This document shows, piece by piece, positions 2,044-61,532 of a stretch of 64,000 bases of DNA; position 1 is the stretch's first letter; the number at the start of each line of letters is the position of its first letter. The notes beneath the pieces are model-generated. The model searched no databases, was not told where the DNA came from, and was given only the letters and a program-made list of their open reading frames with translations. The position numbers and the translations under genes were made by a program. The stretch comes from Dehalococcoidia bacterium. GTDB lineage: Bacteria > Chloroflexota > Dehalococcoidia > Lucifugimonadales > UBA3495. The stretch covers positions 647,919-711,918 of the forward strand of contig JAJDTP010000005.1 in assembly GCA_022827095.1 (NCBI GenBank), read 5' to 3'.

Positions 2044-2826
2044 CTACGTTTCCTCACGGCGCAGTTCTGCTCTGATGCGGGAGAGTTCGGCTTCCGCGGC
2101 GTTGGCGCGGGTTTCGGCCAGGCTGCGTGCGGCCTGCTCAAGGCTGAGTGCGGCTTCGGCGACGACGCGGGCTTCCTGCTCCCGGTCGGCTCGGGCTTCG
2201 GCGGCAACGCGCTTGTCTATTGTCAGGCCCGTCGCCGGGTTCAGCACGTCAAACAACTCCTCTCCGTCCCAGTAAAACACCACGTCCAGCAATTCGCTGT
2301 GTCCCCGCACTGAACCGCCGTCGCCATACTGCAACGGGTACTCCTCGTACCGGCCCGCCATCAATCGCTCTCCCGCAATCGGCTTGCCATATAGCTCGCC
2401 GCCCGTGGGGTCAAACCGCCAGTACTCTTGTATCTCCAGCCGCTGGTACAGCTCCCGCTTCCAGCCCAAATCGTTCGCCGCCGTGCTCGGCGACGCCACT
2501 TCCATCACGAAGTCCGGCGCCTTTCCGATTTCCCAAATCCAGAAGTTCGGCAGGTTCGCCCTTATCCCCGCGCTATCCACTTCAAAGGCGATGAACAGGT
2601 CAGGCTCGACCCGCCGGTTCCCGTTGGTTATATCGTAGGAAACGAATATCCGGCCCGATATGAACACGTCCGGGCAGTCTTCGTAGCGCTCGTCAAGAAG
2701 ATGCGCGATGCGGCGTATGGGCAGATCTTGCTGCATACTGTCCTCAGCCGGCTCCGGCTCTTCGTAGAAGATGTCGGGCAGCGTGCGCACTTTCCAAGCG
2801 TTGGTGATGATTCGGGTGGCGGCCAT
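2044..2826 (-). CDS. Uma2 (DUF820) family putative endonuclease with a C-terminal Ala/Glu/Arg coiled-coil tail
   Basis: The blocks EPDLFIAFEV...PDFVMEVASPST...LYQRLEIQEYWRFDP follow the PD-(D/E)xK-like Uma2 pattern. Confidence 0.8.
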   Translation of the reverse strand: MAATRIITNAWKVRTLPDIFYEEPEPAEDSMQQDLPIRRIAHLLDERYEDCPDVFISGRIFVSYDITNGNRRVEPDLFIAFEVDSAGIRANLPNFWIWEIGKAPDFVMEVASPSTAANDLGWKRELYQRLEIQEYWRFDPTGGELYGKPIAGERLMAGRYEEYPLQYGDGGSVRGHSELLDVVFYWDGEELFDVLNPATGLTIDKRVAAEARADREQEARVVAEAALSLEQAARSLAETRANAAEAELSRIRAELRREET

Positions 2827-5900: not shown

Positions 5901-6687
5901 GAATCGCCCGTACTGCCATGCGGCTGGAGTCGTCGATTGGCGCCACCCCGCCGTTGGACTGCATGATCAGCACGTCGTTGAGTTGAGGGTACGATTCAAA
6001 CCGTTGCGCCAGGTTGGCGAGATATCGACTGAATACTGGTCCGACGTAGGAGTTGATCACCGTGGTGCTGAGCCGGTCGAACTCCTTGATCTGGGGAATC
6101 ACCTCGTGGGACAGGGAGGCGTACACATCGGGGAACTTACTGCGGACGATTTCGGCGGCCCGCCGTTCGTGGGCCGGGTTCAGGTACGAGAACAGGAAAC
6201 AGACCGCCAGCGCCTCGGCGCCTTCCTGGATCAGGTAGTCTAGCTGTTCCAATAGCGCGGCCTCGTCGAGAGGGACTTCGACGTGACCGCTCGCGCGTAT
6301 CCGTTCCGGAACACCAACCCGCAGATAGCGAGCGGACAGGGGTTCCACGGGAGTCATCCGCAAGTTGTACCGGTCTTCTTTGAGCCCTTCCCGCATCTCC
6401 AGGAGGTCGCGAAAGCCGTCGGTGGTGAGCAGGCCCACCGTGGCGCCTTTCCTTTCCACCAGAGTATTGGTGGCGACAGTCGAGCCATGGATCACCAGGT
6501 CCGTGTTGCCCAGGAATTGCTCCAACGGTAGATCGTATGCGGCCGCGGCCTCTTGCAATCCCGTCATAACTCCCAGCGATGGGTCGTCGGGCGTGGTTTG
6601 TGTCTTGAAGTAGCGCGGTTGCCCGGTCTCGCCCGAAACGACAAAGTCCGTAAAAGTGCCTCCGACGTCTATCCCGATCTTGTACAC
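2959..6687 (-). CDS. Fused hydantoinase/oxoprolinase (HyuA-like N-terminal half plus HyuB-like C-terminal half), 1242 aa
   Basis: The N-terminus MYKIGIDVGGTFTDFV is the classic hydantoinase_A start. The C-terminal half (DPITLAVVEHRLESIAQEM..., SRDFSTAILD...) is hydantoinase_B-like. It is one uninterrupted ORF. Confidence 0.9.
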   Translation of the reverse strand: MYKIGIDVGGTFTDFVVSGETGQPRYFKTQTTPDDPSLGVMTGLQEAAAAYDLPLEQFLGNTDLVIHGSTVATNTLVERKGATVGLLTTDGFRDLLEMREGLKEDRYNLRMTPVEPLSARYLRVGVPERIRASGHVEVPLDEAALLEQLDYLIQEGAEALAVCFLFSYLNPAHERRAAEIVRSKFPDVYASLSHEVIPQIKEFDRLSTTVINSYVGPVFSRYLANLAQRFESYPQLNDVLIMQSNGGVAPIDDSSRMAVRAILSGPAGGVSAAAYLGQLLEEPKIIAFDMGGTSTDISLIENGVPHIANEKFEAGWKIAAPMIDIHTLGAGGGSIARVDDGGILHVGPDSAGADPGPSCYAKGGVDPTVTDASLALGYLDASNFLGGRAKLDSAAAMRAIADHVGSPLNLSDAEAAFGVYKVVCTTIAEGIRLMSVQRGVDPREFTMMGFGGASGLHAAEVARQLQVAKVYIPASAPVLSAYGMLNTDTKYDFFRSYPVSLDRLDLNELRAILDELGTQGQEKLLEQAVTPDAVEIQYSADMRYLDQIYEVTVPLPDPSLPVTEFVGLLTDNFHQRYQDLFSYNQQDQEVRLVTLRVAAIGKLPRIAQLDQPGDGDEAASVGSRRVYMGEWLDTPTYAADTLPAGVEIPGPAIIESEFTTILVSPGDRAAVDAMGGVELTVNPEAERLGADGAADSTDADPITLAVVEHRLESIAQEMTEAMLRTAMSQILNSSRDFSTAILDGDCQLVAQGEGIPVHISALPVAGAAVRDYFGDDIHDGDLFILNDPYFGGSHLPDITIIRPVFHQGRLLFYGVNRAHHSDVGGGTHGGYNPGANEIFQEGLRIPPLRLYDRGVPRNDLLQMMSANVRQPENFLGDLNAQIGSVMLAARRIGDLLSEYGADRLMAVVAEILNATERQVRQFVASWPDGIYHGESFVDDDGFDSKLVPIRAQVTIAGDSLTIDLSESSPQVEGFINSAYANTRSLAHAAIMYLAPMDVARNEGSMRPVQIIAPRGLVVNANPPAPVCMSTNHCAEEVVEAVFKALAPAIPGAVSAGFSRRLRYAITGKDPRTGRQFIWHFFLARGGGGASEGFDGWSNVGEINVAGGIRSPSIEVTEERFPLFVQRHELRPDSGGEGQWRGGLGAVCDLVYEGEGPALLNTAGDGIVVPPFGLFGADDGLPHHYKITSNGDERVLGSKEVGVVVNPGDRIVCLSSGGGGYGSPGERDKDAATWDLKNGYVSG

Positions 6688-7807: not shown

Positions 7808-7924
7808 GAGGGCGACCAAAGGCGTCAAACTTCTCGGCCGCCGCCCCGTTTGAATGGACCACGGTCCGGGCCGCTGTATTGACCGGATCAACGCGACCAA
7901 CACCCACGCACCGGAGTGAAACCA

Positions 7925-8950
7925 ATGAAATTCGGCATTATGGCCATGCCCCAGCATCCGTCAACGGACTCGGCGACCCAGAGATTCCATGAAACGGTGG
8001 AGTTGACGCGGTTGGCCCGGGACGCGGGGTTCGGTTCGATCGCGTGCGGGCAGCACTTCCTTTCCCCGCCGTACCAGAATCTCCAGAGCATCCCGCTGTT
8101 GGCCCGGTTAGCCGCAGACTCCGGTGACATGCAATTGGTGCTGTCCATCCTGCTGCTGCCCTTGTACTCGCCCGCTGACGTGGCGGAAACGGTGGCGACG
8201 CTGGACGTGATCAGTGAGGGCCGCGTGGTGCTGGGCGTGGGCCTGGGGTACCGCGACATCGAGTATCAGGCGTTCAATGTGGAACGGCGTCATCGTGTGG
8301 GCCGCTTCCTGGAGAGCCTGGAACTCGTGCGCAGACTTTGGACCGAGGACGAGGTCACTTTCCACGGCGAACACTTCAATCTGGACAACGCGACCTGTGC
8401 CATCCGGCCGGTGCAACAACCGCATCCGCCGATTTGGGTTGCGGCCAATTTCGACACGGTGGTCCGCCGAGCTGGCGAACTCGGATTGCCCTGGTTCGTC
8501 AACCCGCACGCCACGCTGGCCACGCTGGAAAGGCAGACGGCCATATACAAGGAGGGCCTGGAGGCGGGTGGCCAGCAGATGCCGGCTGAAATGCCCATCA
8601 TCAAAGAGATGCACATCGCGCCGACCCACGAAGAAGCGGTCCGCAACGCCCAGCCCTACATGGAAGCCAAATATCAAGCCTACGCCGACTGGGGACAGGA
8701 CAAGGCGCTGCCGGGCGAGGAGAACTTCCGCATCCCCTTTGAGGAATTGGCGCGCGACCGGTTCATCCTCGGAAGCGGCGAAGAAGTGATCCAACAGATC
8801 GAAGACCATCACCAGCGCGTGGGCGCCAATCACTTCATGTTTCGGATCTGGTATCCGGGCATGGATGCCCGGATGGCGATGCGCGTCGTGGAGCAGATGG
8901 GCGACAGCGTGATTCCGTATTTCGAAAGCCGATACGGAGTTGAGAACTGA
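7925..8950 (+). CDS. LLM-class flavin/F420-dependent oxidoreductase (luciferase-like monooxygenase family)
   Basis: MKFGIMAMPQHP..., a TIM-barrel LLM pattern. GGAG lies 8 nt upstream of the ATG at 7925. A GTG at 7916 is an alternative start. Confidence 0.8.
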   Translation: MKFGIMAMPQHPSTDSATQRFHETVELTRLARDAGFGSIACGQHFLSPPYQNLQSIPLLARLAADSGDMQLVLSILLLPLYSPADVAETVATLDVISEGRVVLGVGLGYRDIEYQAFNVERRHRVGRFLESLELVRRLWTEDEVTFHGEHFNLDNATCAIRPVQQPHPPIWVAANFDTVVRRAGELGLPWFVNPHATLATLERQTAIYKEGLEAGGQQMPAEMPIIKEMHIAPTHEEAVRNAQPYMEAKYQAYADWGQDKALPGEENFRIPFEELARDRFILGSGEEVIQQIEDHHQRVGANHFMFRIWYPGMDARMAMRVVEQMGDSVIPYFESRYGVEN

Positions 8951-9019: not shown

Positions 9020-10144
9020 ATGCCTGTAACCTCGGCGGGTGCCGGCCGTATGCCGATGAGCAATAAGAAAATCGTCGTAGTCGGCGGCGGTACTGGCAAC
9101 CATACCACCCTGACCGGCCTGCGATCCCGTGAATGCGATGTTACGGCGATCGTCGCAATGACCGATAGCGGCGGAAGCAGTGGCCGCCTGCGCGAAGAGA
9201 TGGGCCACCTGCCGCCCGGGGATCTGCGCCGGTGCCTGATGGCCCTCGCTTCGGACTCCGCGGAATCCAACCTGATGCGCCGGTTGTTCGATTTCCGTTT
9301 CTCCACCGGCGACGGGTTGAACGGGCACAGCTTCGGCAATTTGCTACTGGCTGCGCTGACCGAAGTCACCGGAGACACCATCACTGCCATCGATGAGGCG
9401 GCCCGCATCCTCGGCATCAGTGGCACGGTGCTGCCGGTTACCCTGACGAGGTCCACTCTGTGTGCCAAGCTGGTGGACGGATCCGAGTTGATCGGCGAAT
9501 CGGCCATCGATCTGCGGAGCGACAACCTGGACGTCGCAATCGACTACATTTACCTGGACCCGAAGGCGTATGTGTATCCGCCGGTCCTGGACGCGATAGC
9601 TGAAGCCGACGCCATCGTGCTGGGGCCGGGCGACATTTACACCAGCGTTTTGCCGAACCTGCTGGTAGAAGACGTGGCGCAGGCGATCAATGATTCCGAT
9701 GCCATCAAGGTCCACGTGTGCAACCTCATGACCAAGCCCAACGAGAGCGCCGGGTTCTGCACATCCGATTTCCTGGCTCTCCTCATGGAATACCTGGGCA
9801 CGAGCCAGCCACTGGATTTCCTGCTGGTCAACAACACGCCAGTACCGCCGCGGCTGCTGGAGCGCTACGCCGCGGAAGGCCAGCACCCGGTCGCGGTGGA
9901 CGAGTCGGCCTCTCTGACCATGGTCGGGCGAGTAGTTGACAGGCCGCTGCTGGCCCCCGGCGTGTTCATCCGACACAGTCCAACCGCTCTGGCGGAAGCG
10001 ATTATGGACCTCGTCGACTCGGCGGACCGGGCACGACGCTATACGGCAGCGACGCCGCTGGTGTTTGATTGCGACGACCTCGGCGACGTTCTGGCGCCTG
10101 AAGAAACCATGACGGTCGCTCGCGCCAACGCCGACGGCGACTGA
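9020..10144 (+). CDS. YvcK/GlmR (CofD-like, UPF0052) family gluconeogenesis factor
   Basis: KKIVVVGGGTGNHTTLTGLR...VAMTDSGGSSGRLR is the signature N-terminal block of the YvcK/CofD family. The true start may be an internal Met at 9050 or 9056. Confidence 0.8.
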   Translation: MPVTSAGAGRMPMSNKKIVVVGGGTGNHTTLTGLRSRECDVTAIVAMTDSGGSSGRLREEMGHLPPGDLRRCLMALASDSAESNLMRRLFDFRFSTGDGLNGHSFGNLLLAALTEVTGDTITAIDEAARILGISGTVLPVTLTRSTLCAKLVDGSELIGESAIDLRSDNLDVAIDYIYLDPKAYVYPPVLDAIAEADAIVLGPGDIYTSVLPNLLVEDVAQAINDSDAIKVHVCNLMTKPNESAGFCTSDFLALLMEYLGTSQPLDFLLVNNTPVPPRLLERYAAEGQHPVAVDESASLTMVGRVVDRPLLAPGVFIRHSPTALAEAIMDLVDSADRARRYTAATPLVFDCDDLGDVLAPEETMTVARANADGD

Positions 10145-16456: not shown

Positions 16457-17410
16457 GTGATGATGAATAAGGTGACAGATTTGCAACGTCAAGCGGCGGG
16501 CACCGATGCAACGGGGAGCCGCGCCAGGGCCCAACTGGGCAAACAAGCTATCCGATGCGCACTGAACGGCGAATGGGAAGAGGCCGCCGCGGCAAACCGC
16601 CAGATTCTGGACATCTGTCCCACTGACTGCGAGGCGACCAATCGGTTGGCGAAAGCCCTCATGGAGCTTGGCGACTATCCTGAGGCCCGCAAGATCCTGG
16701 AGCAGCTTCGAGTGCGTTCACCCTCCAACGTCATCGCGCGGAAGAACCTTGCGCGGCTTGACCAGCTGGAAAGCCGGCCCGGAGAACTCGGCTCACAACC
16801 CGCGGCGGCAGGAAAGTCTCCAGACATGTTCATCGCCGAAAGCGGCAAGTCCTGCACCACTACGCTGTGCCGCACGGCTGGTCCACCGGAGGATGCGCCG
16901 GTCAGCGCCGGCGACGTGGTAGTGCTGAAGGCCCAGAACGACGGGATAATCGTCAATGCGTTGGATGGACAATATCTGGGAGCGCTGCGACGGCGGTTGG
17001 GCCGGCGGGTGAACAAACTGATGACTGGCGGCAACCAGTACGACGCGGCCGTGGTCGGGATCGAACCGGACGGGTTGTCGGTGATTCTCCGTGAAACAGG
17101 TCAGGCGCCGGCGCTGCGCCACGTGGTCTCCTTTCCGGCCCAGGTGATCGAACCTTACCGGGCTGAGCCGGCGGCTGAACCTGATGAGTTCAAGCCAGCA
17201 GCGAATGAAGAGCCGGACCCGACTCCGGCGGATGCCATCGATCCTGACGACGCCATAGACCCCGCTGAAACCGCGCTAATGGACATGCCCGATGAAACGC
17301 CGGTTGAGTCGGTAGGAGACGACGACGTTCCAACGTTGGACACCGACGACGATGCGACCGATTGGCCGCCGGTAACCCCACCCTCGGATGACGAGGAGGA
17401 GTGGGAGTAG
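16457..17410 (+). CDS. Hypothetical protein with an N-terminal TPR-like region and a strongly acidic Asp/Glu/Pro-rich C-terminal tail
   Basis: The ORF has coding-like composition. The TPR-like helices read EATNRLAKALMELGDYPEARKILEQL, and the tail reads DAIDPDDAIDP...DDDATDWPP...SDDEEEWE. I do not recognise a family. Confidence 0.55.
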   Translation: MMMNKVTDLQRQAAGTDATGSRARAQLGKQAIRCALNGEWEEAAAANRQILDICPTDCEATNRLAKALMELGDYPEARKILEQLRVRSPSNVIARKNLARLDQLESRPGELGSQPAAAGKSPDMFIAESGKSCTTTLCRTAGPPEDAPVSAGDVVVLKAQNDGIIVNALDGQYLGALRRRLGRRVNKLMTGGNQYDAAVVGIEPDGLSVILRETGQAPALRHVVSFPAQVIEPYRAEPAAEPDEFKPAANEEPDPTPADAIDPDDAIDPAETALMDMPDETPVESVGDDDVPTLDTDDDATDWPPVTPPSDDEEEWE

Positions 17411-17434: not shown

Positions 17435-19114
17435 TCAGGCTTGGCCGGCTCCTCGCGCCCGGGAATCGAGGCTGACCGCCAAACTTGACCGGAAGGGACG
17501 CACGCGGTTGTCCTGGTGCGGGACGCCCATTGGCACCACAAACACTGCTTCCTGTCCGGCGGAGTGTGGCCCGAAAAATTCGACCACGGCATCGTCGAAG
17601 AAGGTGAGGCCGGTGGCTCCCAGCCCCAGAGCGTGACAGGCGAGGTATATCCGGCCGCCGATCATGCCTGCGACGGTTTGCGCCATCCGGTATCCCCGGG
17701 GTCCGAATTCCCGGTCGATCAAGGGCAAGTCGGCCGTGATGAACGCTACCGCCGCAGCGTCAGCCGGAAGCGCCTGCTCGAAACCCAGGTGCCCGGCCGT
17801 TTCGTGGAAATCGCCTTCCTTGAGCAACCGCAACCCGTTGTAGAAGCGATTGTAGTAATAGGCTCCTGAGGCAAGCCCGTCAACCGCGTTTACGATCAGA
17901 TAGACGCTCAGGTAAGGCGAGAACCCGTCCGCGAGATGCGGCGCGTTGATAGGGTTTCCGGCAGCGTCAATGATGGAGCGGAAATCCTCCCACGAGACCG
18001 GGTCAGTGGCAAAGCGTCTGGTCGACCCCCGGGAACGGATGCACTCGCTCAGGGATTGCGCGGTGCGTGACGGGAGGTCCAATTCCCCGTCAAAGCTCCC
18101 ATCGGAGCCGGAACGGAGCGGGCGGAACCCTTCGCCCGTGCCGTCCAATTCGTCCTTGTCGCCGCTACGACCGGGGTCAACGGGCGCATTCCAGTCCGCG
18201 ACGTCCTCGCCGGCTCGCAACCAGGAAGCCAGGTGAATTTCACGCGACAACGGATATTCCAGGGCGCCGACCGCGAGTTCGTTGCTTTCCTGGGGCAACA
18301 TTCCCGGAACGTCACCGGAACCGGGGTTCAACATGCCGTCCGGACTGCCGATCGTCGCCAGCAGGGACGGCGCTTCCTCGATCCCGTCGATCCCGATGTA
18401 CCCGGTAAGCGAACGATCCACGAATCCAAATTTCAGACCTACCGATGTGCCGGCAGCGTTTCCGGTCGCCGCGAGATTGGCAGCAATGGTGCCCAGATCC
18501 CAGTAACAATAGCGGTAGCCCCGCTCCCGGTATTTCCACGCGCTCCGCCAGAACACGGTAGTGAATACCAGGGTTGCCGGGTAGGCGGCGTGATCTTGAG
18601 CGGCGGCGGCCACCCACCGCCGCAGGTCGCCGTTGCGGAGGCGGGCCAGGGTGAAATCAAGAGGGTTGAAGTGGTATACGCCGGCGCGAAGACCGTCCAG
18701 GTCGCCGCAGACCACGTACACCTCGGTTGGATACAAAGCACCGGCGGAGGCGGCCGCACGATAATGCACCTCGCCGTCCCGCAACGTTCTTCGGCGGATG
18801 ACCGCGGCCGCGTGGTAAAGCAGCTCGGCCAACGTTTGCAGAGTCGGCGGCCTTTCCGCGTCCCCGGTTTGGCCGGTCTCGCGGATCGCGCGCAGTGTGG
18901 ACATTTCCTGGCCGGATGACGCGGCCACGTCGGGCAGGGGAATTGCCCGCAAATCGGGATAGACCTTGTACAGTGGGGGCTTGTTGCTGAGGTTGATGTA
19001 TTGGAGCTTGGTGGCGTCGTTGAACGAGGCCGCCAGGTTTGGGCGGTCGGGCGCCTGGTTGGTAACCATGTCTTGCTGTCCTGTTCGCGTTGCGTCTGGG
19101 CGGTCAAAAGGCAC
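17435..19114 (-). CDS. SagB/ThcOx-type dehydrogenase (tandem nitroreductase-fold domains)
   Basis: 559 aa. Two nitroreductase-like halves contain ...RRTLRDGEVHYRAAASAGALYPTEVYVV... and ...SRGSTRRF...SPYLSVYLIV..., typical of SagB-type FMN dehydrogenases. The alternative start at 19069 (MVTNQ) would remove the overlap with folB. Confidence 0.75.
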   Translation of the reverse strand: MPFDRPDATRTGQQDMVTNQAPDRPNLAASFNDATKLQYINLSNKPPLYKVYPDLRAIPLPDVAASSGQEMSTLRAIRETGQTGDAERPPTLQTLAELLYHAAAVIRRRTLRDGEVHYRAAASAGALYPTEVYVVCGDLDGLRAGVYHFNPLDFTLARLRNGDLRRWVAAAAQDHAAYPATLVFTTVFWRSAWKYRERGYRYCYWDLGTIAANLAATGNAAGTSVGLKFGFVDRSLTGYIGIDGIEEAPSLLATIGSPDGMLNPGSGDVPGMLPQESNELAVGALEYPLSREIHLASWLRAGEDVADWNAPVDPGRSGDKDELDGTGEGFRPLRSGSDGSFDGELDLPSRTAQSLSECIRSRGSTRRFATDPVSWEDFRSIIDAAGNPINAPHLADGFSPYLSVYLIVNAVDGLASGAYYYNRFYNGLRLLKEGDFHETAGHLGFEQALPADAAAVAFITADLPLIDREFGPRGYRMAQTVAGMIGGRIYLACHALGLGATGLTFFDDAVVEFFGPHSAGQEAVFVVPMGVPHQDNRVRPFRSSLAVSLDSRARGAGQA

Positions 19115-26663: not shown

Positions 26664-26755
26664 TCCGGCCAAGTTGAGATAGTTCACTCGCCGTTGTTAG
26701 AATGCTGTATCGTACGTCCATCCCGTGAAGCGGAGATGGGCCAGGCAGGATTGGA

Positions 26756-27793
26756 GTGGTTGACGCAGCGCCCCGAGCGGCCATACATACGATTCCCGAT
26801 TCGCTGGACGCAATCGAAGAGTGCTACCGGCGAGGTTGGACCGACGGCTTGCCAGTCGTGCCGCCCACCGCCGACCGTGTCCAGGTGATGCTGGAAGCGG
26901 TGGGACTGGAGCCGGGCCATGTGCTCGGAGAAGTTCCGGTGCGGCGCCGGGCGCTGACGGCTGAACAGGCCGCGGCTAATGCCGTCATGGCCGGCTGTCT
27001 CCCGGCCTATTTCCCCATCGTGCTGGCGACCATGCGGGTTCTGTTCGAGCACGACCCTAATTGCATTCACGAAGTGTCCGCGGTTACCAACTCCACCGGT
27101 TTGATGGTTGCGGTCAATGGCCCGATCCGGCGGGAGATCAATCTGAACTGCACCGACAACCTGTTCAGTCCCGGCAATCGCGCCAACTCAACCATCGGGC
27201 GGGCGCTGCGCTTGATCTTGATCAACGTGTTCGAACAAAGGCCCGGCTTGCTGGACCGGGGGTGCATGGGCAGCCTGACCAAATTCGGCGTGGTTTTCGG
27301 CGAGGATGAAGAAAACAGCCCATGGGAGCCGTTCCACGTCAGCCAGGGATTTTCGGCCGAGCAATCCACGGTAACCGTGGCAACGATCCAGGATCCGTCC
27401 ATGCACAGCAACCGATACGGCTCCAACGCCGAGAGCCTGCTGGATTCCATCGCCGACGGAATGGCGTCGCACGGCTTGGCCGCTTACTTCGGACGCAATA
27501 TCAAATGGGTATGGATCGTAGGGCATTGGCATTCTGAACGGTTGGCACGGCAGGGCTGGACCCGAACCGACATGCAGGAGTATGTGTACGAGCGCTCCTG
27601 GCGGTCCGCCGGCCAGCTGAAGCGCCTCGGCATGGCCACCGGCGCCGTCCAGCCCGGGGATGACGACGAGCGGCGCATGACCGTCGCAGGCCCGGACGAT
27701 ATATTGATTTTTAAAGCCGGCGGGGACAGCGGCATGTACAGCGAACTCATTATGAATTATTACGGGGTTCCCGCCGAGATCGGCGTCATCTGA
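26756..27793 (+). CDS. Conserved hypothetical protein (345 aa) immediately upstream of the putative selenoprotein
   Basis: Long ORF with coding-like composition (…RGWTDGLPVVPPTADRV…AANAVMAGCLPAYFPIV…). I do not recognise a family. The GTG start at 26756 is uncertain. Confidence 0.6.
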   Translation: MVDAAPRAAIHTIPDSLDAIEECYRRGWTDGLPVVPPTADRVQVMLEAVGLEPGHVLGEVPVRRRALTAEQAAANAVMAGCLPAYFPIVLATMRVLFEHDPNCIHEVSAVTNSTGLMVAVNGPIRREINLNCTDNLFSPGNRANSTIGRALRLILINVFEQRPGLLDRGCMGSLTKFGVVFGEDEENSPWEPFHVSQGFSAEQSTVTVATIQDPSMHSNRYGSNAESLLDSIADGMASHGLAAYFGRNIKWVWIVGHWHSERLARQGWTRTDMQEYVYERSWRSAGQLKRLGMATGAVQPGDDDERRMTVAGPDDILIFKAGGDSGMYSELIMNYYGVPAEIGVI

Positions 27794-27823
27794 CGCTTCC
27801 GACTGTCGGACAAAGGAGTTTTC

Positions 27824-28396
27824 ATGGCGACGCAAAACCTGCCTACGGTGCAACTGGTCGACCCCACCGGCTTTGATCCCGGCGAGACTCCCTTGGTCAT
27901 GGCGGCCCGTCCGGTCGACCTCCGTGGCGGACGCCTGGGTCTGCTGGACAACTCCAAGGCCAATGCGGACGCGATCCTGTGGGCCATTGCCAATGCCCTG
28001 AACGACGAGTTTGAGTTTGCCGACATCTTCTACACCCGCAAGCACAGCTCATCTCTGCCGCCTCATCCCGAGGTGTTGGCCGACCTCCACCGTAACGCCG
28101 ATTTCGTCATAGCCGGCGTCGGCGATTGAGGGGGATGCTCGTCGGGCAGTTTGCACGACGGAATCACCTTGGAGCGCCAGGGCATCCCGGCGGCGACCAT
28201 CATCACCACCGTGTTCGCCAACACCGCCCGCGCTTACACGCGACTGATGGGCGTGCCCGATTTCCCGTACCTCATGTGCGCGCACCCGATCGGCAACCTC
28301 ACCGGCGACGATTTGCAGGAACGCGCACGACTACTGACACCCCAGGTTCGCCGCCTGCTCGCTAACGGGGATTTGGCGCGGGCGGAAACCGCCTGA
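27824..28396 (+). CDS. Putative selenoprotein (UxxC motif, in-frame UGA at 28127-28129), 190 codons if read through; resembles what I recall as the 'UGSC family (seleno)protein'
   Basis: AAAGGAG RBS then ATG at 27824. The ORF stops at a TGA that is in frame (offset 327 nt) with ORF 28151..28396, which has only a TTG start and no RBS. Read-through gives ...FVIAGVGD-U-GGCSSGSLHDGITLERQGIPAATIITTVF... A hairpin begins 10 nt after the UGA. Confidence 0.65.
28139..28161 (+). promoter_or_regulatory. Candidate bacterial SECIS hairpin
   Basis: u-CGUCG-G-GCA-[GUU]-UGC-A-CGACG-g. There is a 5-bp lower stem (28140-44/28156-60), a 1x1 internal loop, a 3-bp upper stem and a G/U-containing apical loop. 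It starts 10 nt 3' of the UGA, the spacing expected for bacterial SECIS elements. Confidence 0.4.
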
Positions 28397-28413: not shown

Positions 28414-30231
28414 ATGCCCGGGATCGGGGACATTTTCCGCAGGTTGACGCGTCGCTCCCAGGCGTCGGAGCCGGAGCAGGCTGAAACGTTCGAGGCCAGA
28501 ACCGATGTGACGCCACCGGACCCGCCCGATTTAGCGCCCCCTGAACCGCTTGCCTGGGAGCACGAAGATGCCGCCCCTGAGCTAGCTTCCACCTCGGAGC
28601 TGGAAGACCTGCGGTTCTCGTCGCCCGAAGAACCGGCTTCATCGCAGGCGGCGTTTGACGATCAACCGCCGCGTGAAACGTTGATTTCCGCACCTCTCGA
28701 ACCGCAGGTGAGTTTCGCGCCTGACGGACGGGATGGCAGTAACGTGGGCGTACTTGATCCGCCATTCGTCGATATCGGGGACGATGTCCTGGTTGACGAC
28801 CCGCTTTTGCTGGTTTGCCCGTATTGCGGAACGGAGGGGCAACGGGTCGGCGCGCGCTGCGCCAACGAGCGATGTAACCGCGTCATCGTGCGTCTGCCGC
28901 CCTGGGCACAACACCGGCGGCACAGTTGGCTGACACGACGTCTTTCGTGGCGACGCATCGTCGCTGCGTGCGTCGTCGCGCTGCTAATCGTTTTCGTGAT
29001 CTGGATCAACTACCCGTTTGCGCCCGACCCGGTCGTGTTGTTCAAGAAGACCCAGACGCAGTTGACCATTGACGCGGGTCCAGGTTCGTGGACTGGTGTC
29101 GGCAGGGATCTCCGGCACAGCCGGCGAGTGGACATTGGACCGCCACCGCCTTCCGGTCAGATGAGGTACTGGAACTTCGACGTTCCCGGGGACCCGTTGC
29201 TATCGGAGCCCGTCGCACAGGACACGCACGTGTACGTAGGTTCGTCAGAAGGGATGTACGCCTTGTCCCATGCGGATTTGTCGTTTATCGAAAAGTGGGA
29301 AGGCGACACGCCGGGTCGGATAACTGCCGGAGCCTCTGTGGTCGGTTTGTATCTCTTCTTTGGGAGCACAGACCACACCGTCAGTTCGTGGAACGCATTT
29401 GACGGCCAGGTGCGCTGGAGTTTTCCCACCGCTGACACGGTTGAAACCGCCCCCGTGGTGTCGGATGGCCTGGTGTACATCAGCTCAGGGGAGAGTTGGA
29501 TCTATGCCCTGGATGCTCACAACGGAGTGTTGATCTGGAAAAAGCAGCTGGATAGCAACGCCAGCGATGCCGCCACTATTCACGACGGCAAGCTGTTCAT
29601 TGGCGACGAGAAGGGAGTGTTCTACATTTTGTCCGCCCGAACCGGCCAGGAATGGTTCCGTTTCCGAACCCCGCGAGCCATCAGCGGATCACCCGTGGTT
29701 TCCGAAGATGGGGAACGCGCGTATTTCAGCGCGGGTGGCCAGTTGTACGCCGTGGAAGCGACCCGCCGCGAGATACCAGGTCTCTATCAATTCAAACAGT
29801 TGTGGGCTCAGCTGTGGCTCTGGCAGGTGCCCGGGGTTCCGCGACCAAAGGGACAGCAAGGGGGACTATGGCGGTTCACGCCCGAAAACCCGCTTCAAGG
29901 GATCAAGAGCAGCCCGACGCTGGTCGACGACGCCGGTGGCGGCACGTTGTACGTCGGAGGACACGACAACAATGTCTACGCGCTGAACGCCATAACGGGC
30001 GACCTTTTGTGGACTTTCCAGACGGAAAATGCAGTGTGGGCTTCGCTCCTGGCCATTAAAGACCACCTGATCGTTGGCGACGAATCGGGTTTCCTGTATT
30101 CGCTGGACCGGCTGACCGGGGTTGAGAATTGGAGGATGAACCTCGGGTCTGCGATCATGATCCCGCCGGTCGTGAGCAACGGATTGCTGATCGTACGGAC
30201 CGCCGACGGCAACGTGTATGGAATCGAATAG
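28414..30231 (+). CDS. Membrane-anchored PQQ-like (BamB-type) beta-propeller repeat protein with a cytoplasmic acidic/Pro-rich region and a zinc ribbon
   Basis: The N-terminal ~150 aa are low complexity. They are followed by CPYCGTEGQRVGARCANERCNRV (4 Cys) and one TM helix (IVAACVVALLIVFVIWI). Repeated YVGS/YALD/LIWK/G.LY.L motifs typical of PQQ-like propellers come after that. Confidence 0.8.
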   Translation: MPGIGDIFRRLTRRSQASEPEQAETFEARTDVTPPDPPDLAPPEPLAWEHEDAAPELASTSELEDLRFSSPEEPASSQAAFDDQPPRETLISAPLEPQVSFAPDGRDGSNVGVLDPPFVDIGDDVLVDDPLLLVCPYCGTEGQRVGARCANERCNRVIVRLPPWAQHRRHSWLTRRLSWRRIVAACVVALLIVFVIWINYPFAPDPVVLFKKTQTQLTIDAGPGSWTGVGRDLRHSRRVDIGPPPPSGQMRYWNFDVPGDPLLSEPVAQDTHVYVGSSEGMYALSHADLSFIEKWEGDTPGRITAGASVVGLYLFFGSTDHTVSSWNAFDGQVRWSFPTADTVETAPVVSDGLVYISSGESWIYALDAHNGVLIWKKQLDSNASDAATIHDGKLFIGDEKGVFYILSARTGQEWFRFRTPRAISGSPVVSEDGERAYFSAGGQLYAVEATRREIPGLYQFKQLWAQLWLWQVPGVPRPKGQQGGLWRFTPENPLQGIKSSPTLVDDAGGGTLYVGGHDNNVYALNAITGDLLWTFQTENAVWASLLAIKDHLIVGDESGFLYSLDRLTGVENWRMNLGSAIMIPPVVSNGLLIVRTADGNVYGIE

Positions 30232-45951: not shown

Positions 45952-48063
45952 ATGGCCGGTTACCGCAAGCATGAAGCGCAGGAATGGGCCTGGCAAAGTT
46001 TGAAGGGGCAATGGACCACGCTGGTCACGCCCTTCACGCCGGACAACCAGGTGGATACTGAAGGTCTCCGCCGGAACATTCGTCACGTTCAGAGCCTGGG
46101 CGTACGCGGCGGCGGCTGCACCTGGAACATGGGCGAATTCTGGAGCCTGACCGAGGGCGAGCGCCGCCTCGTAATGGACACGGTGGCCGACGAAGCGGCC
46201 GGCCATTGGCTCATCGGCGCCCACGTCACCGACACCTCCCTGCGTGAGAGTATTGCGCTGGCCCAGCACGCCGAACTCCGGGGTTTCGACCTCCTGATCA
46301 TTGCTCCCTCGTACATGGTGACCAAGACCGAGGACCAGGTCGTCGATTTCGTGCGCCAGGTCGCCGACAACACCGAATTGGCGATGATGTTCTACAACTC
46401 TCCCCAGTTCGGCATCACCATCAGCCCCCAGGGTCTGAAGCGGTTGTGCGCCATCCCCAACGTGGTTGGTGTAAAGGAGGCCAGCTTCAACCAGCAGATT
46501 TCCATCGAAACCCACCTGCTGGTCGGTCGCGACGCGATAATCAGCACGCCGGACGAGTGGATATTCCACAAGGCCCGGGAGTTGGGCTTCCACCAGCAGG
46601 TGATGTTTGCCAACACGTCCGACTGGCGGTTCGACACGCCGCGCCACAACTACTACACCCAGTTCATCGACCGCGCCACCACGGGTGACTTGGATGTGGA
46701 CTTCTACAACCACTACCTGAAGGACATCAAAGCGCTGTCCGACAAGTGGTGGGGCGGCACCATGAAAAAGACCGGCGGCGCGCTCCCCGTCGCCATGTGC
46801 AAGGCGTGGGGCGAGATGATGGGCATGGCCGGCGGAAGCGTCCGCGCGCCTTTGCAGGACCTGACCCACGAAGAGAAGTCCGAACTGTGGAGCGAGTTGG
46901 AGCCTTTGCTTCCTCGTGCCGGCGCCCCGGCAGAGCCAGCCCGCGAGGTAATCCACGGCCGCCCGCATGCGCCGTGGCTCAACGGCAACGGCGTCCGTGA
47001 CGGCCGGAGCGGGCTTTCCGAGTCGGGCATGATGCTGCTGGTGAGCGCCCAGAACAAGGCCGAGGCGATGGAAGCGGACCGGGGCGGCGCCGACATCATC
47101 GACCTGAAAAACCTCCAGGAAGCTCTGGTGGGCTCGGCTCATCCCAGCCTCGTTCGGGAAGTACGGGAGATCATCTCGCCGGAAAAGCACGTGAGCGTTA
47201 CTCTGGGCGTCGTTCCCAACCAACCGGGCACCGTCGCCATGGCGGTGCACGCCGCCGCGTTGATGGATGCGACTTCGGTCAAAGTCGGGTTCCAGGTCGC
47301 GGACTACGAAACCGCCGTTGAGGTGCTGCGGGAATCCCGCGCCGCCATCGGGAACGCGGATACCAAGCTGATCGGCTCCCTGTTCGCCGACAACCTGCTG
47401 TTCGAGGGCGGACTCGATCCCCACCTCATGGTCAGGCTGGCTATCGACGGCGAATGCGACGGGTTCCTGATTGACACCCTGACCAAGGACGGCCGCAACC
47501 TGTTCGACTTCATGCCCGAGCCGGTGCTGCGGGATATGGTCATGCACGCGAAACAGGAAGGACTGAGCACCGCGCTGAGCGGACACTTGAAGCTGGAGAA
47601 CCTTGACGAACTGGCGCGCATCAACCCGGATATCGTCGGCGTTCGCGGCGCCGTGTGTTCCAGCGGAGAGCGAGATCGCGCCGTCGCCTGGGAAGCCGTG
47701 GCCTATTTCAAGGAGCAACTTGACCTGCGCAAGAGCGGCGTGATCGACGTGCGCGCTCCCGTGGGCGTTGCCCCGGGTGGCAACGGGTACGCCAATGGCA
47801 ATGGCAACGGCAATGGACAGGGCAGCGGTTGGACCGTTATCGATGGCCGAGGCAAGAACTGCGCTGGAGTCATCGCCGCCCTGAGCCGCCAGATGGAGTA
47901 CGACCGCACTTCATTTATCGAGGCCATACTCCACGACGCCCTGAACATCTATGACGTCGTCTATTGGGCCGAACAGGCCGGGCATCGCCTGCTGACCCAG
48001 CGCAAGGAAAACGACGGCACCCTGCGCGTGCTGATCGAGCCCTACGGCAACGGCAATCACTGA
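45952..48063 (+). CDS. Tri-domain fusion protein: DapA/NAL-family class I aldolase (aa ~1-320), MfnB-type (5-formylfuran-3-yl)methyl phosphate synthase (DUF556, aa ~360-590), Gly/Asn linker and a TusA-like domain (aa ~627-697)
   Basis: GGAGG RBS then ATG. The DapA-like part has MFYNSP (Tyr148) and VVGVKEAS (Lys175). The MfnB-like part has MLLVSAQ...GGADIIDLKN (Asp384/Lys386), SVKVGF (Lys444), FLIDTLTKDGRNLFDFM (Asp508), ALSGH and DIVGVRGAVC. The tail reads WTVIDGRGKNCAGVIAAL...GTLRVLIEP. It is a single uninterrupted ORF. Confidence 0.85.
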   Translation: MAGYRKHEAQEWAWQSLKGQWTTLVTPFTPDNQVDTEGLRRNIRHVQSLGVRGGGCTWNMGEFWSLTEGERRLVMDTVADEAAGHWLIGAHVTDTSLRESIALAQHAELRGFDLLIIAPSYMVTKTEDQVVDFVRQVADNTELAMMFYNSPQFGITISPQGLKRLCAIPNVVGVKEASFNQQISIETHLLVGRDAIISTPDEWIFHKARELGFHQQVMFANTSDWRFDTPRHNYYTQFIDRATTGDLDVDFYNHYLKDIKALSDKWWGGTMKKTGGALPVAMCKAWGEMMGMAGGSVRAPLQDLTHEEKSELWSELEPLLPRAGAPAEPAREVIHGRPHAPWLNGNGVRDGRSGLSESGMMLLVSAQNKAEAMEADRGGADIIDLKNLQEALVGSAHPSLVREVREIISPEKHVSVTLGVVPNQPGTVAMAVHAAALMDATSVKVGFQVADYETAVEVLRESRAAIGNADTKLIGSLFADNLLFEGGLDPHLMVRLAIDGECDGFLIDTLTKDGRNLFDFMPEPVLRDMVMHAKQEGLSTALSGHLKLENLDELARINPDIVGVRGAVCSSGERDRAVAWEAVAYFKEQLDLRKSGVIDVRAPVGVAPGGNGYANGNGNGNGQGSGWTVIDGRGKNCAGVIAALSRQMEYDRTSFIEAILHDALNIYDVVYWAEQAGHRLLTQRKENDGTLRVLIEPYGNGNH

Positions 48064-61379: not shown

Positions 61380-61532
61380 CGGGGGGTTCCCAGCCTGGGA
61401 CCGGTCTGAATTCGTTGCACCAGTATAGCCGACCGATTCGCCAAGGCAGGGATCGGCAACGGATAGAGTTGTCACCGTCCGCCTGGATAATCAGAGCATA
61501 TTCATTATCGCTTCGTCGACTGAGCAGACCCT

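What the first reader, a model, noticed from the sequence alone, without database searches (positions are those of the whole stretch)
27824..28396. In-frame UGA with a U-x-x-C motif and a downstream hairpin: probable selenoprotein split into two ORFs by the track
Seen in sequence:
- ORF 27824-28129 has a good AAAGGAG RBS and ends at TGA 28127-28129.
- ORF 28151-28396 is in the same frame (offset 327 nt), begins only at a TTG, and has no RBS.
- The 21 nt between them are also open. Read-through gives a 190-codon product: ...NADFVIAGVGD-U-GGCSSGSLHDGITLERQGIPAATIITTVFANTARAYTRLMGVPDFPYLMCAHPIGN...
- The UGA sits three residues before a Cys (U-G-G-C), the classic redox Sec/Cys pair spacing.
- Ten nt after the UGA a hairpin forms (CGUCG-G-GCA-[GUU]-UGC-A-CGACG, 28140-28160) with G/U in the apical loop.

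Established knowledge: bacterial SECIS elements are stem-loops beginning about 11 nt 3' of the UGA. UxxC/CxxU motifs are typical of redox selenoproteins.

From memory (not checked), there is a catalogued 'UGSC family (seleno)protein' of about this length. The ERxGIP...I.T segment also recalls the GrdB/PrdB-type reductase selenoprotein fold. The function of this family is, as far as I know, unknown.
Basis: partly seen in the sequence, partly recalled or inferred. Interest (0 to 1): 0.7.

Follow-up and report, generated by a model that had tools for sequence, protein, structure and literature searches.

The report
UGSC selenoprotein gene split by annotation
This is one gene for a 190-residue selenocysteine-containing protein of the known but functionally uncharacterised UGSC family, wrongly split at its UGA codon, and it always travels with an unannotated 345-residue partner gene.

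Summary
ORFs 27824-28129 and 28151-28396 are one gene. Reading through TGA 28127-28129 gives a 190-aa protein that matches Pfam PF24696 across both halves and passes the NCBIfam NF041046 'UGSC family (seleno)protein' cutoff.

- **Codon conservation:** 146 related loci keep TGA at this column. Full-length homologs carry Cys there.
- **Translation:** both halves are under similar purifying selection (dN/dS 0.16 upstream, 0.20 downstream).
- **Hairpin:** synonymous sites are frozen only over hairpin 28140-28160. Cys-type genes encoding nearly the same peptide vary freely there.
- **Genetic code:** TGA is otherwise the window's commonest stop codon.
- **Not verified:** the Sec machinery. It is absent from the window and documented only for a related MAG.

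The family has been known since about 2005-2008, so the selenoprotein call is routine.

New here:
- The upstream 345-aa gene (26756-27793; no Pfam, NCBIfam or PDB match; at least 7,988 relatives) is adjacent in 79 of 80 genomes and fused to UGSC in at least 10 protein clusters.
- The UGSC model is flavodoxin-like, not thioredoxin-like.
- Cys-type systems add a NifU-like CxxC domain.

The suggested GrdB/PrdB link found no support. Function remains inferred: a redox Sec/Cys subunit of a two-component enzyme.

The parts
26674..26703 (+). Promoter-like site (TTGAGA-18-TAGAAT with an upstream TG) between the DUF2071 gene and the partner gene. It may be the operon promoter.
   Evidence: Consensus scan only: 10 of 12 matches. 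Tentative.
26756..27793 (+). Partner gene. It encodes a 345-aa uncharacterised protein with the motifs GWTDGLPVVPPT and NAVMAGC. Cys81 is the only universally conserved Cys. The gene ends at a TGA stop, 30 nt before the UGSC start.
   Evidence: - No Pfam, NCBIfam or PDB-sequence hit.
- At least 7,988 relatives, all 'hypothetical'.
- Adjacent to UGSC in 79 of 80 genome loci and in Cys-type loci, in either gene order.
- Fused to UGSC in at least 10 protein clusters.
- AF2 model pLDDT 86.8, with no PDB structural neighbour.
- Conserved residues.
27813..27819 (+). Shine-Dalgarno sequence AAAGGAG, 4 nt upstream of the ATG.
   Evidence: Read directly from the sequence.
27824..28396 (+). Complete UGSC-family selenoprotein gene: 190 codons plus a TGA stop at 28394-28396. 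Sec is residue 102.
   Evidence: - Translation.
- PF24696 at 178.5 bits over residues 11-179.
- NF041046 at 129.6 bits against a cutoff of 125.
- dN/dS about 0.16 upstream and 0.20 downstream of the UGA.
28127..28129 (+). In-frame UGA read as selenocysteine (U102). It is the first residue of the U-G-G-C motif encoded at 28127-28138.
   Evidence: - TGA in 146 related loci; TGC in 15 metagenome loci.
- Cys in 37 of 39 full-length homologs.
- It is the only internal TGA among 45 window genes, although 23 of them end in TGA.
28136..28162 (+). Codons +3 to +11 after the UGA, where synonymous sites are frozen. This marks an RNA-level constraint overlapping the coding sequence.
   Evidence: - Normalised synonymous entropy 0.15 vs 0.76 +/- 0.17 for the rest of the gene.
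- TGC-type homologs encoding nearly the same peptide vary freely here.
28140..28160 (+). Putative bacterial SECIS hairpin: a 9-position stem (CGUCG-G-GCA / UGC-A-CGACG) with one internal G.A mismatch. The apical loop GUU lies at 28149-28151. The stem starts 10 nt, and the loop 19 nt, after the UGA.
   Evidence: - Part of the MFE fold.
- 87.8% of cells paired vs 22-51% with slid partners.
- Four pairs and the G-U-N loop are invariant in 85 distinct sequences.
- Pair changes that keep the stem: G-C to G-U to A-U at pair 15-33, and G.A to U-A or G-U at pair 19-29.

Best explanation
Window 27824-28396 is a single gene for a 190-residue UGSC-family selenoprotein.

**Shown**
- UGA at 28127-28129 is decoded, not used as a stop.
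- The residue at that position is the Sec/Cys position of a conserved D-(U/C)-G-x-C-S-S-G motif.
- An RNA hairpin at 28140-28160 is under selection only in the UGA-type genes.

**Inferred from established knowledge of bacterial Sec insertion**
- The hairpin is a SECIS element. It recruits SelB carrying Sec-tRNA(Sec) to the ribosome paused at UGA, so that selenocysteine is inserted.

**Shown by structure model**
- The protein is a flavodoxin-like parallel alpha/beta domain.
- Sec102 sits immediately after strand beta3, at the N-cap of helix alpha3. Cys105 is in the first turn of that helix. This is the geometry of a redox-active CxxC pair.

**Shown by comparative genomics**
- The gene forms a two-gene unit with the upstream 345-aa protein (26756-27793). 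The two are also found fused in one polypeptide.

**Inferred, and the least certain step**
- The two proteins form one enzyme.
- The partner binds an anionic small-molecule substrate. It has several invariant Arg residues and a universal Cys81/His259/Asp/Glu set.
- The Sec102-Cys105 pair cycles between selenolate/thiol and selenenylsulfide, supplying or removing reducing equivalents, possibly through a mixed Se-S bond with partner Cys81.
- In Cys-type versions a NifU-like CxxC domain is added, perhaps as an extra redox relay that the more reactive Sec makes unnecessary.
For: **Identity**
- PF24696 matches across both halves.
- NF041046 scores above its cutoff.

**Decoding of the UGA**
- TGA is kept at the column in 80 of 80 genome loci and 64 of 79 metagenome loci where the column could be read, with the frame intact afterwards.
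- Cys occupies the column in 37 of 39 full-length homologs.
- Codons +1 and +3 keep Gly and Cys while using several synonymous codons.
- dN/dS is 0.20 downstream and 0.16 upstream.
- TGA ends 23 of 45 other genes in the window, and no other gene has an internal TGA.

**SECIS**
- Synonymous sites are frozen exactly over the hairpin.
- The apical stem and G-U-N loop are invariant in 85 distinct sequences, with structure-preserving changes.
- No such freeze exists in 22 distinct TGC-type sequences.

**Lineage uses Sec**
- Dehalococcoidia bacterium UBA1141, the source of locus L067, is listed with 49 selenoprotein genes (PMC13326102).

**Fold**
- AF2 pLDDT 89.8 for a Cys-type homolog.
- Nearest PDB folds are flavodoxin, WrbA, TIR and lumazine synthase.

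**Partner link**
- Adjacent in 79 of 80 genome loci.
- Adjacent in Cys-type loci with unrelated neighbourhoods.
- Upstream on the same strand in 148 loci, with a median gap of 38 nt.
- At least 10 fusion clusters.
- Universal Cys81.

**NifU-like third part**
-.
Against: - No selA, selB, selD or tRNA-Sec lies in the window. No tRNA-Sec lies in the 60 related loci scanned. The genome's Sec trait is therefore unverified.
- The hairpin is not significant in the single sequence (z = -0.84).
- Part of the pairing potential follows from the peptide itself. TGC-type genes pair at 6.4 of 9 stem positions on average.
- There is essentially no covariation, because the stem hardly varies. Six of 9 pairs never vary, and shuffles match the observed counts.
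- The structure model is of a 44-46% identical Cys-type homolog, not of the window protein.
- The redox and complex-formation steps have no direct evidence. Flanking genes give no consistent pathway.
Confidence: 0.88

Rival explanations
1. The TGA is a genuine stop. The locus would then be a pseudogene, or a split gene whose C-terminal part is made separately from the TTG at 28151.
For: - Public gene callers annotate a 101-aa ORF and a separate 75-aa ORF, both hitting PF24696.
- Codon +8 is TTG or GTG in TGA-type genes, and both can serve as start codons.
- No Sec machinery lies in the window.
Against: - A pseudogene would not keep TGA and an intact, purifying-selected downstream frame in 146 loci.
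- Codons +1 to +7, between the TGA and the TTG, encode the most conserved motif of the family (G-x-C-S-S-G-S).
- Codons +1 and +3 vary synonymously while keeping Gly and Cys.
- No conserved Shine-Dalgarno sequence precedes codon +8. The GGGGGA there changes to GGCTCC or GGCGCC in other clades.
- A split would remove the U/C of the U-x-x-C pair, which is Cys in uninterrupted homologs.
Confidence: 0.04
2. The UGA is read through, but not as selenocysteine. Either the organism reassigns TGA (to Trp or Gly), or a near-cognate tRNA inserts Cys or Trp, helped by the downstream hairpin.
For: - Two database homologs were translated with W at this position.
- Sec machinery is not demonstrated for this genome.
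Against: - TGA terminates 23 of 45 genes in the window, and no other gene has an internal TGA, so the code is standard.
- The column alternates only between TGA and Cys codons. This is the signature of Sec/Cys pairs.
- The family is a catalogued selenoprotein family.
- The hairpin's position and G-U loop fit a SelB-type element.
- A MAG carrying a TGA-type copy of the gene is recorded as selenoprotein-rich.
Confidence: 0.04
3. Rival for the function only. The U/C-x-x-C motif is a ligand site for a metal or an Fe-S cluster, or a persulfide/perselenide carrier. The module would then traffic a cofactor or sulfur/selenium rather than catalyse a substrate redox reaction.
For: - A NifU-like CxxC domain is encoded next to, or fused with, Cys-type UGSC proteins.
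- The motif D-U-G-x-C-S-S-G-S is a Gly/Ser-rich loop at a helix N-terminus, a typical anion- or cofactor-binding nest (model).
- The weak top structural hits of the partner are Fe-S hydro-lyases (class I fumarase, CyuA).
- From memory: HesB/IscA-like selenoproteins exist.
Against: - The structural hits have TM about 0.26, which is noise.
- Only one partner Cys is universal, too few to ligate a cluster alone.
- TGA-type loci lack the NifU-like gene.
- Sec/Cys pairs with x-x spacing at a helix N-cap are most often redox pairs (established knowledge).
Confidence: 0.2

Closest known systems
UGSC family (seleno)protein (NCBIfam NF041046; Pfam PF24696). This is the 'UGSC-containing protein' of Zhang and Gladyshev (PLoS Genet 2008, PMC2398784).
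   Same: - Passes both family models.
- Same length class.
- Same U-G-x-C motif at the same column.
- Same Sec/Cys alternation.
- Same aquatic and marine uncultured-bacteria distribution.
   Different: - The motif here is U-G-G-C rather than U-G-S-C.
- The literature calls the fold 'likely Trx-like', but the model is flavodoxin-like with no Trx-fold hits.
- The obligatory 345-aa partner is not named in the reviews read. The 2008 paper mentions a fusion to an 'Unknown_1' domain, which may be the same protein, but that figure is an image and could not be compared.
Bacterial SECIS elements (for example E. coli fdhF), recognised by SelB
   Same: - Stem-loop within the coding sequence immediately 3' of the UGA.
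- Stem begins 10 nt, and the apical loop 19 nt, after the UGA.
- G then U at the first loop positions.
- One internal non-paired position in the stem.
- Conserved only in UGA-type genes.
   Different: - The loop is only 3 nt.
- There is no Rfam match.
- SelB binding was not tested.
- The comparison criteria for fdhF and bSECISearch are recalled from memory.
GrdB / PrdB selenoprotein subunits of glycine and D-proline reductases (Pfam PF07355)
   Same: - UxxC-type Sec motif (PMC2398784 Table 2).
- The Sec subunit works with a second, larger subunit encoded alongside.
- Both are abundant in marine metagenomes.
   Different: - No PF07355 hit for any of 40 UGSC members, even at E <= 10.
- The partner has no Pfam hit at all, so it matches no PrdA/GrdE-type model at the thresholds used.
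- The contexts are aerobic catabolic neighbourhoods, not Stickland fermentation.
Thioredoxin-fold CxxC/UxxC oxidoreductases (Trx, DsbA, Prx-like selenoproteins)
   Same: Two redox-capable residues two positions apart, with the first at the N-cap of an alpha-helix.
   Different: The sheet is all-parallel beta-alpha-beta, of flavodoxin/Rossmann type. No Trx-fold protein appears among the top 50 PDB matches, and there is no Trx-family Pfam hit.

Membership tests
UGSC family (NF041046 / PF24696) | Whole-protein score above the curated cutoff of the family models | tested here: met
   With U replaced by C, NF041046 scores 129.6 bits against a cutoff of 125. PF24696 scores 178.5 bits against a cutoff of 25, over residues 11-179 and spanning the UGA.
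UGSC family (NF041046 / PF24696) | U/C-G-x-C motif at the conserved column, with Sec or Cys in homologs | tested here: met
   The window has U-G-G-C. TGA occupies the column in 146 loci, and Cys in 37 of 39 full-length homologs.
Bacterial selenoprotein gene (SelB/SECIS-dependent) | Stem-loop starting about 11 nt 3' of the UGA, with G/U in the apical loop | tested here: met
   Hairpin 28140-28160, with a 10-nt spacer and loop GUU. The loop is GUU, GUG or GUC in all 85 distinct sequences.
Bacterial selenoprotein gene (SelB/SECIS-dependent) | Hairpin under selection as RNA (conservation beyond coding need, or covariation) | tested here: met
   Synonymous entropy is 0.15 vs 0.76, and TGC-type controls show no freeze. 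Covariation proper is nearly absent, with one G-C to A-U change and a few G-U pairs.
Bacterial selenoprotein gene (SelB/SECIS-dependent) | selA, selB, selC (tRNA-Sec) and selD present in the same genome | not testable with these tools
Lineage-level support only: the UBA1141 MAG (locus L067) is listed with 49 selenoproteins.
Bacterial selenoprotein gene (SelB/SECIS-dependent) | Selenium actually incorporated at the UGA | not testable with these tools
   Needs 75Se labelling or mass spectrometry.
Thioredoxin-fold oxidoreductases | Trx fold (mixed sheet, beta-alpha-beta-alpha-beta-beta-alpha) | tested here: not met
   The AF2 model of homolog P0204 is an all-parallel beta-alpha repeat. The top 50 Foldseek PDB matches are flavodoxin, WrbA, TIR and lumazine synthase, with none of Trx fold.
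GrdB/PrdB reductase selenoproteins (PF07355) | Match to the GRDB family model | tested here: not met
   0 of 40 UGSC members hit PF07355 at E <= 10.
GrdB/PrdB reductase selenoproteins (PF07355) | Shared three-dimensional fold | not testable with these tools
   No GrdB or PrdB structure appeared among the PDB matches, and no AlphaFold DB library was available.

The most novel reading that the evidence does not exclude
UGSC and the 345-aa partner, plus a NifU-like CxxC domain in Cys-type versions, form a previously undescribed two- or three-component Sec/Cys-dependent enzyme.

- The selenoprotein subunit is flavodoxin-like, not thioredoxin-like.
- The catalytic subunit belongs to a very large family (at least 7,988 sequences) with no model in Pfam or NCBIfam and no PDB structural neighbour.
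- Replacing Cys by Sec may make the NifU-like relay dispensable.

This would give one of the most abundant orphan selenoprotein families of aquatic metagenomes a defined partner, and so a route to its substrate.
Probability: 0.45. Interest if true: 0.55.

Novelty: new member of a known kind. Interest (0 to 1): 0.33.

Why it matters
- **Annotation:** the public record of this gene, and of well over a hundred orthologs, is truncated at the UGA. The calls are 101-aa and 75-aa ORFs, so the active-site half is lost.
- **Biology:** UGSC has been among the most abundant selenoprotein families in ocean and freshwater metagenomes since 2008, yet it has no known function. Three results turn an orphan into a testable two-component system:
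  - It is tied to a specific, unannotated 345-aa protein by adjacency in either gene order across phyla and by natural fusions.
  - It is not a thioredoxin-fold protein.
  - Cys-type versions carry a NifU-like domain.
- **Limit:** none of this is surprising enough to change how selenoproteins are understood.

Tried and rejected
1. **GrdB/PrdB relationship.** No PF07355 hit for any of 40 members.
2. **Thioredoxin fold.** Not supported by the model or by Foldseek.
3. **Sequence-level PDB relatives.** None for UGSC or the partner with single sequences. With profiles, UGSC gave only marginal hits (E >= 0.03). The partner hit de novo designed TIM barrels over 45 residues, which I judge spurious.
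4. **Partner fold.** The best match is class-I fumarase at E = 9e-3 and TM 0.26, which is not a real match.
5. **Three-Cys Fe-S site in the partner.** C23, C132 and C170 are not conserved outside the Sec-type clade. Only C81 is universal.
6. **Second read-through joining partner and UGSC.** The partner's TGA stop is in frame with UGSC in the window. Across loci the frame is shared in only 44 of 148, and the stop is TAG, TGA or TAA, so this is coincidence.
7. **Other TGA-interrupted genes in the window.** All other same-frame ORF pairs are separate genes with their own starts.
8. **tRNA-Sec near related loci.** None in 60 loci.
9. **Rfam.** No match in the window.
10. **Covariation test.** Uninformative, because the stem barely varies.
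11. **Pathway from flanking genes.**
    - TGA-type loci share no recurrent neighbour.
    - Cys-type loci sit among TctC/Bug transporters, UbiD, MmgE/PrpD, CoA ligase/transferase and acyl-CoA dehydrogenase genes. This suggests carboxylic-acid catabolism but no specific reaction.
13. **Comparison with the 2008 'Unknown_1' fusion domain.** The supplementary figure is held only as an image.
Full report
**1. The observation**

- AAAGGAG lies at 27813-27819, followed by ATG 27824. That frame ends at TGA 28127-28129.
- The ORF list gives 28151-28396 in the same frame, starting at TTG.
- Translating 27824-28396 yields one internal stop at codon 102 and the terminal stop. The product reads ...NADFVIAGVGD*GGCSSGSLHDGITLERQGIP....
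- The hairpin CGUCG-G-GCA[GUU]UGC-A-CGACG occupies 28140-28160 and is part of the minimum-free-energy fold of 28127-28180.
- On its own this hairpin is not remarkable. Its free energy is -17.6 kcal/mol with z = -0.84, and 35 of 200 shuffles fold as well.

**2. Family identity**

With U replaced by C, the read-through product matches two curated family models.

- Pfam PF24696 (UGSC) matches at E = 1.6e-52 over residues 11-179. The match runs across the UGA and uses 169 of 172 model positions.
- NCBIfam NF041046, 'UGSC family (seleno)protein', scores 129.6 bits against a curated cutoff of 125.

The family was described as the 'UGSC-containing protein'. It was among the most abundant selenoprotein families of the Global Ocean Sampling data, with 255 Sec forms against 21 Cys forms (PMC2398784). 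Recent reviews still list it as functionally uncharacterised (PMC13188914 and PMC9312934).

**3. Is the UGA decoded?**

The related sequences say yes.

- **First protein search.** Nine of the 12 retrieved homologs end exactly at ...G(V/I)GD, at the same stop. One has W at that position, from TGA translated under another code, and continues in frame. One has Cys there.
- **Genome scan.** A scan of 185,579 species genomes returned 80 loci. Nearly all are Dehalococcoidia/Chloroflexota MAGs, with three Candidatus Entotheonella and one Binatia. The closest are 97-98% identical. All 80 have TGA at the column, with the frame conserved afterwards.
- **Metagenome scan.** It added 64 TGA-type and 15 TGC-type loci.
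- **Profile search.** Among 39 full-length proteins, the column holds Cys in 37 and W in 2.
- **Selection.** Against the window sequence, median dN/dS is 0.20 for codons +13 to +75 after the UGA and 0.16 for the 70 codons before it. Both halves are translated in this frame.
- **Codons right after the UGA.** Codon +1 is Gly in 77 of 77 sequences using four codons. Codon +3 is Cys in 77 of 77 using both codons. Translation therefore continues directly past the UGA and does not restart at the TTG.
- **Genetic code.** TGA ends 23 of 45 genes in the window, and the UGSC gene is the only one with an internal TGA. The genome does not reassign TGA.
- **Sequencing error.** The same TGA in 146 independent assemblies excludes an error.

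**4. The hairpin as a SECIS element**

The evidence for an RNA-level constraint is frozen synonymous sites, not covariation.

- **Frozen sites.** In a codon alignment of 77 distinct orthologs, normalised synonymous entropy averages 0.15 over codons +3 to +11, against 0.76 +/- 0.17 elsewhere. This is the lowest 9-codon window in the gene. For example, Ser+5 is always TCG, Gly+6 always GGC and Ser+7 always AGT.
- **Pairing.** On 53 distinct sequences the nine stem positions are paired in 87.8% of cells, against 22-51% when partners are slid. Six pairs never vary, so shuffles match the observed values and covariation is uninformative.
- **Larger set.** With 85 distinct sequences from 146 loci, pairs 17-31, 20-28, 21-27 and 22-26 are invariant. 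The loop is GUU (61), GUG (22) or GUC (2).
- **Structure-preserving changes.** Pair 15-33 shows G-C (57), G-U (4) and one A-U double change. The internal G.A mismatch becomes U-A in a divergent clade (21) or G-U (2).
- **Natural control.** The 22 distinct TGC-type sequences encode nearly the same peptide (CGSCSSGS.LDG) but use varied codons and fold inconsistently. Their MFE is -8.2 +/- 3.5 against -10.4 +/- 1.1 kcal/mol (p = 5e-4).
- **Caveat.** Part of the pairing potential is a by-product of the peptide. TGC-type sequences still pair at 6.4 of 9 positions.
- **Fit to bacterial SECIS elements.** The stem starts 10 nt and the loop 19 nt after the UGA, with G then U opening the loop. This fits what I recall of bacterial SECIS elements (from memory, not tested). 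Rfam has no matching model.
- **Upstream codon.** The codon before the UGA is GAT in 77 of 77 TGA-type genes, whereas TGC-type genes use GAT and GAC.

**5. Sec machinery**

This is the main gap.

- ARAGORN finds no tRNA in the window.
- Forty-five ORFs were scanned against Pfam or NCBIfam. None is SelA, SelB or SelD.
- The region is ordinary chromosome. It carries PolA, IleRS, Ffh, GlmS, aspartate kinase, Fpg, a CoxLMS-like Mo hydroxylase and a peptide ABC transporter.
- No tRNA-Sec lies in 60 related loci.
- The rest of the genome could not be reached.
- Lineage-level support exists. BSepDB lists Dehalococcoidia bacterium UBA1141, the source of TGA-type locus L067, with 49 selenoprotein genes, and another Dehalococcoidia MAG with 46 (PMC13326102).

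**6. The partner gene**

The gene immediately upstream (26756-27793, 345 aa) is linked to UGSC by adjacency and by fusion.

- **No annotation.** It has no hit in Pfam, NCBIfam or PDB sequences. Yet it has at least 7,988 relatives, all 'hypothetical' and without a precomputed Pfam domain. The 120 best listed are 61-99% identical and include proteins named from Chloroflexi, Entotheonella, Binatia, Methylomirabilota and Rokubacteria.
- **Adjacency in genome loci.** tblastn of the window's neighbours against the 80 genome loci shows that all other neighbours are shared only by close relatives (31-40 loci). The partner lies directly upstream of UGSC in 79 of 80.
- **Spacing.** Over both scans it is upstream on the same strand in 148 loci, with a median gap of 38 nt.
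- **Cys-type loci.** In Cys-type loci with quite different surroundings, a 345-360-aa no-Pfam protein again abuts UGSC, in either order. It is about 41% identical to the window's partner (E = 1e-76 to 1e-82).
- **Natural fusions.** An exhaustive profile search found 3,788 UGSC representatives at E <= 1e-3. Among the best 150, about a dozen proteins of 502-657 aa carry UGSC at the N-terminus. Ten of these have a C-terminal partner domain (27-41% identity, E = 1e-34 to 1e-65).
- **Interpretation.** Conserved adjacency in both gene orders plus fusion is strong evidence that the two proteins work together.
- **Conserved residues.** Across Sec-type, Cys-type and fused partners the universal residues include D30, G31, C81 (in A-G-C), R149, D167, E183 and H259. 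The other cysteines of the Sec-type clade (C23, C132, C170) are not universal.

**7. A third component in Cys-type systems**

- Many Cys-type loci encode an approximately 80-aa CxxC protein directly after UGSC.
- It is also found fused, as UGSC-small domain (P0255, P0265, P0300) and as small domain-UGSC-partner (P0348).
- P0300 matches Pfam NifU (PF01106) at 32.4 bits against a cutoff of 27.
- tblastn finds no copy in the window or in any TGA-type locus.

**8. Structures**

- **UGSC.** The tool would not accept the U-to-C window sequence. A natural Cys-type homolog, P0204, was modelled instead, with the window halves included in the alignment.
  - P0204 is 44-46% identical to the window protein.
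  - The model has pLDDT 89.8 and pTM 0.85.
  - It is a beta-alpha repeat with a parallel sheet.
  - The Sec-equivalent Cys94 follows strand beta3 (residues 86-92) and caps helix 95-110. The second Cys lies in the first helical turn.
  - The nearest PDB folds are flavodoxins, WrbA, TIR domains and lumazine synthase (TM 0.35-0.5, E >= 1e-3). No thioredoxin-fold protein appears. The literature's 'likely Trx-like fold' is therefore not supported, although the CxxC-at-helix-N-cap geometry is redox-like.
- **Partner.** The model has pLDDT 86.8 and pTM 0.87. It has no real PDB neighbour. The best is class-I fumarate hydratase at E = 9e-3 and TM 0.26.
- **Profile searches of PDB sequences.** These gave only marginal or spurious hits.
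- **GrdB/PrdB.** No UGSC member hits PF07355.

**9. Mechanism**

- **Shown.**
  - This is one gene whose UGA is decoded.
  - The UGA column is a Sec/Cys position.
  - An RNA hairpin is selected only in UGA-type genes.
  - The gene is obligately associated with the partner.
- **Inferred from established Sec biology.** The hairpin is a SelB-binding SECIS and the inserted residue is selenocysteine.
- **Inferred from geometry and family patterns.**
  - Sec102 and Cys105 form a reversible selenenylsulfide.
  - They serve the partner, which probably binds an anionic small molecule.
  - In support, the partner has many invariant Arg residues, and Cys-type loci sit among TctC/Bug transporters, UbiD, MmgE/PrpD, CoA-ligase/transferase and acyl-CoA dehydrogenase genes.
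- **Pathway.** Flanking genes of divergent TGA-type loci share nothing, so no specific reaction can be named.
- **Rival function.** A metal, Fe-S or persulfide-carrier role is kept alive by the NifU-like domain.

**10. Verdict**

- The finding is real and correctly interpreted. As a selenoprotein call it is a new member of a catalogued family and a routine annotation error.
- The public call for this very sequence is a 101-aa ORF (P0207).
- The added value is the partner and fusion evidence, the non-Trx fold, and the Cys-type-only NifU-like component. Together these make the orphan family experimentally approachable.

Noticed in passing
L087:8562-8813; also L129, L131, L138, L142-L144, L149, L152, L158, L166, L168, L169, L171; proteins P0255, P0265, P0300, P0348: A NifU-like CxxC domain of about 80 aa (PF01106, 32.4 bits in P0300) is encoded directly after, or fused to, Cys-type UGSC genes. 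It is absent from the window and from every TGA-type locus. This suggests that Sec and the extra CxxC domain may be alternatives.
   Followed up: partly
window 28124-28126 and orthologs: The codon before the Sec UGA is GAT in 77 of 77 TGA-type genes, although GAC also encodes Asp. TGC-type genes use both. There may be a nucleotide-context requirement 5' of the recoded UGA.
   Followed up: no
L048/L049/L066 (JAPNTN01), L056/L068 (NVWX01), L046/L065 (CAZVRK01), L054/L060 (JAKUQE01), L070/L077 (CAYVIG01): Several single MAGs carry two or three diverged copies of the partner-UGSC pair. The module has therefore expanded into paralogs within genomes, perhaps with different substrates.
   Followed up: no
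window 45952-48063 (+): A 703-aa protein combines an N-terminal DapA/KdgD-like aldolase region with a C-terminal region (residues 360-590) matching (5-formylfuran-3-yl)methyl phosphate synthase (MfnB-like). MfnB is an enzyme of methanofuran biosynthesis, which is unexpected in a Chloroflexota genome.
   Followed up: no
window 17435-19114 (-): A 559-aa SagB-family peptide dehydrogenase (two matched stretches) sits next to a TPR protein (16457-17410). No precursor peptide or cyclodehydratase was looked for. It may be part of a RiPP-type system.
   Followed up: no
window 59994-61475 (-): A 493-aa protein has a Mug-type G/U mismatch glycosylase domain only in its C-terminal third (residues about 312-490). 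The first 310 residues or so have no family match.
   Followed up: no
window 2959-6687 (-): A single 1,242-aa polypeptide joins hydantoinase/oxoprolinase A and B. Nearby are a class IV aminotransferase, an F420-dependent LLM oxidoreductase (7916-8950) and CofD (9020-10144), so the organism appears to use cofactor F420.
   Followed up: no
window 28414-30231 (+): A 605-aa PQQ/BamB-like beta-propeller protein starts 18 nt after the UGSC stop. It accompanies the pair only in close relatives (35 of 80 loci), so it is probably not part of the conserved module.
   Followed up: partly
window 27791-27823: The partner gene's TGA stop and the 30-nt spacer are in frame with UGSC. Across 148 loci the frame is shared in only 44, and the stop is TAG, TGA or TAA. 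This is coincidence, not a second read-through.
   Followed up: yes
window 2044-2826 (-) and L042:8149-8934: A Uma2-family putative endonuclease gene occurs in the window. An Uma2-family gene also lies directly upstream of the partner-UGSC pair in an unrelated locus. This is probably chance.
   Followed up: no
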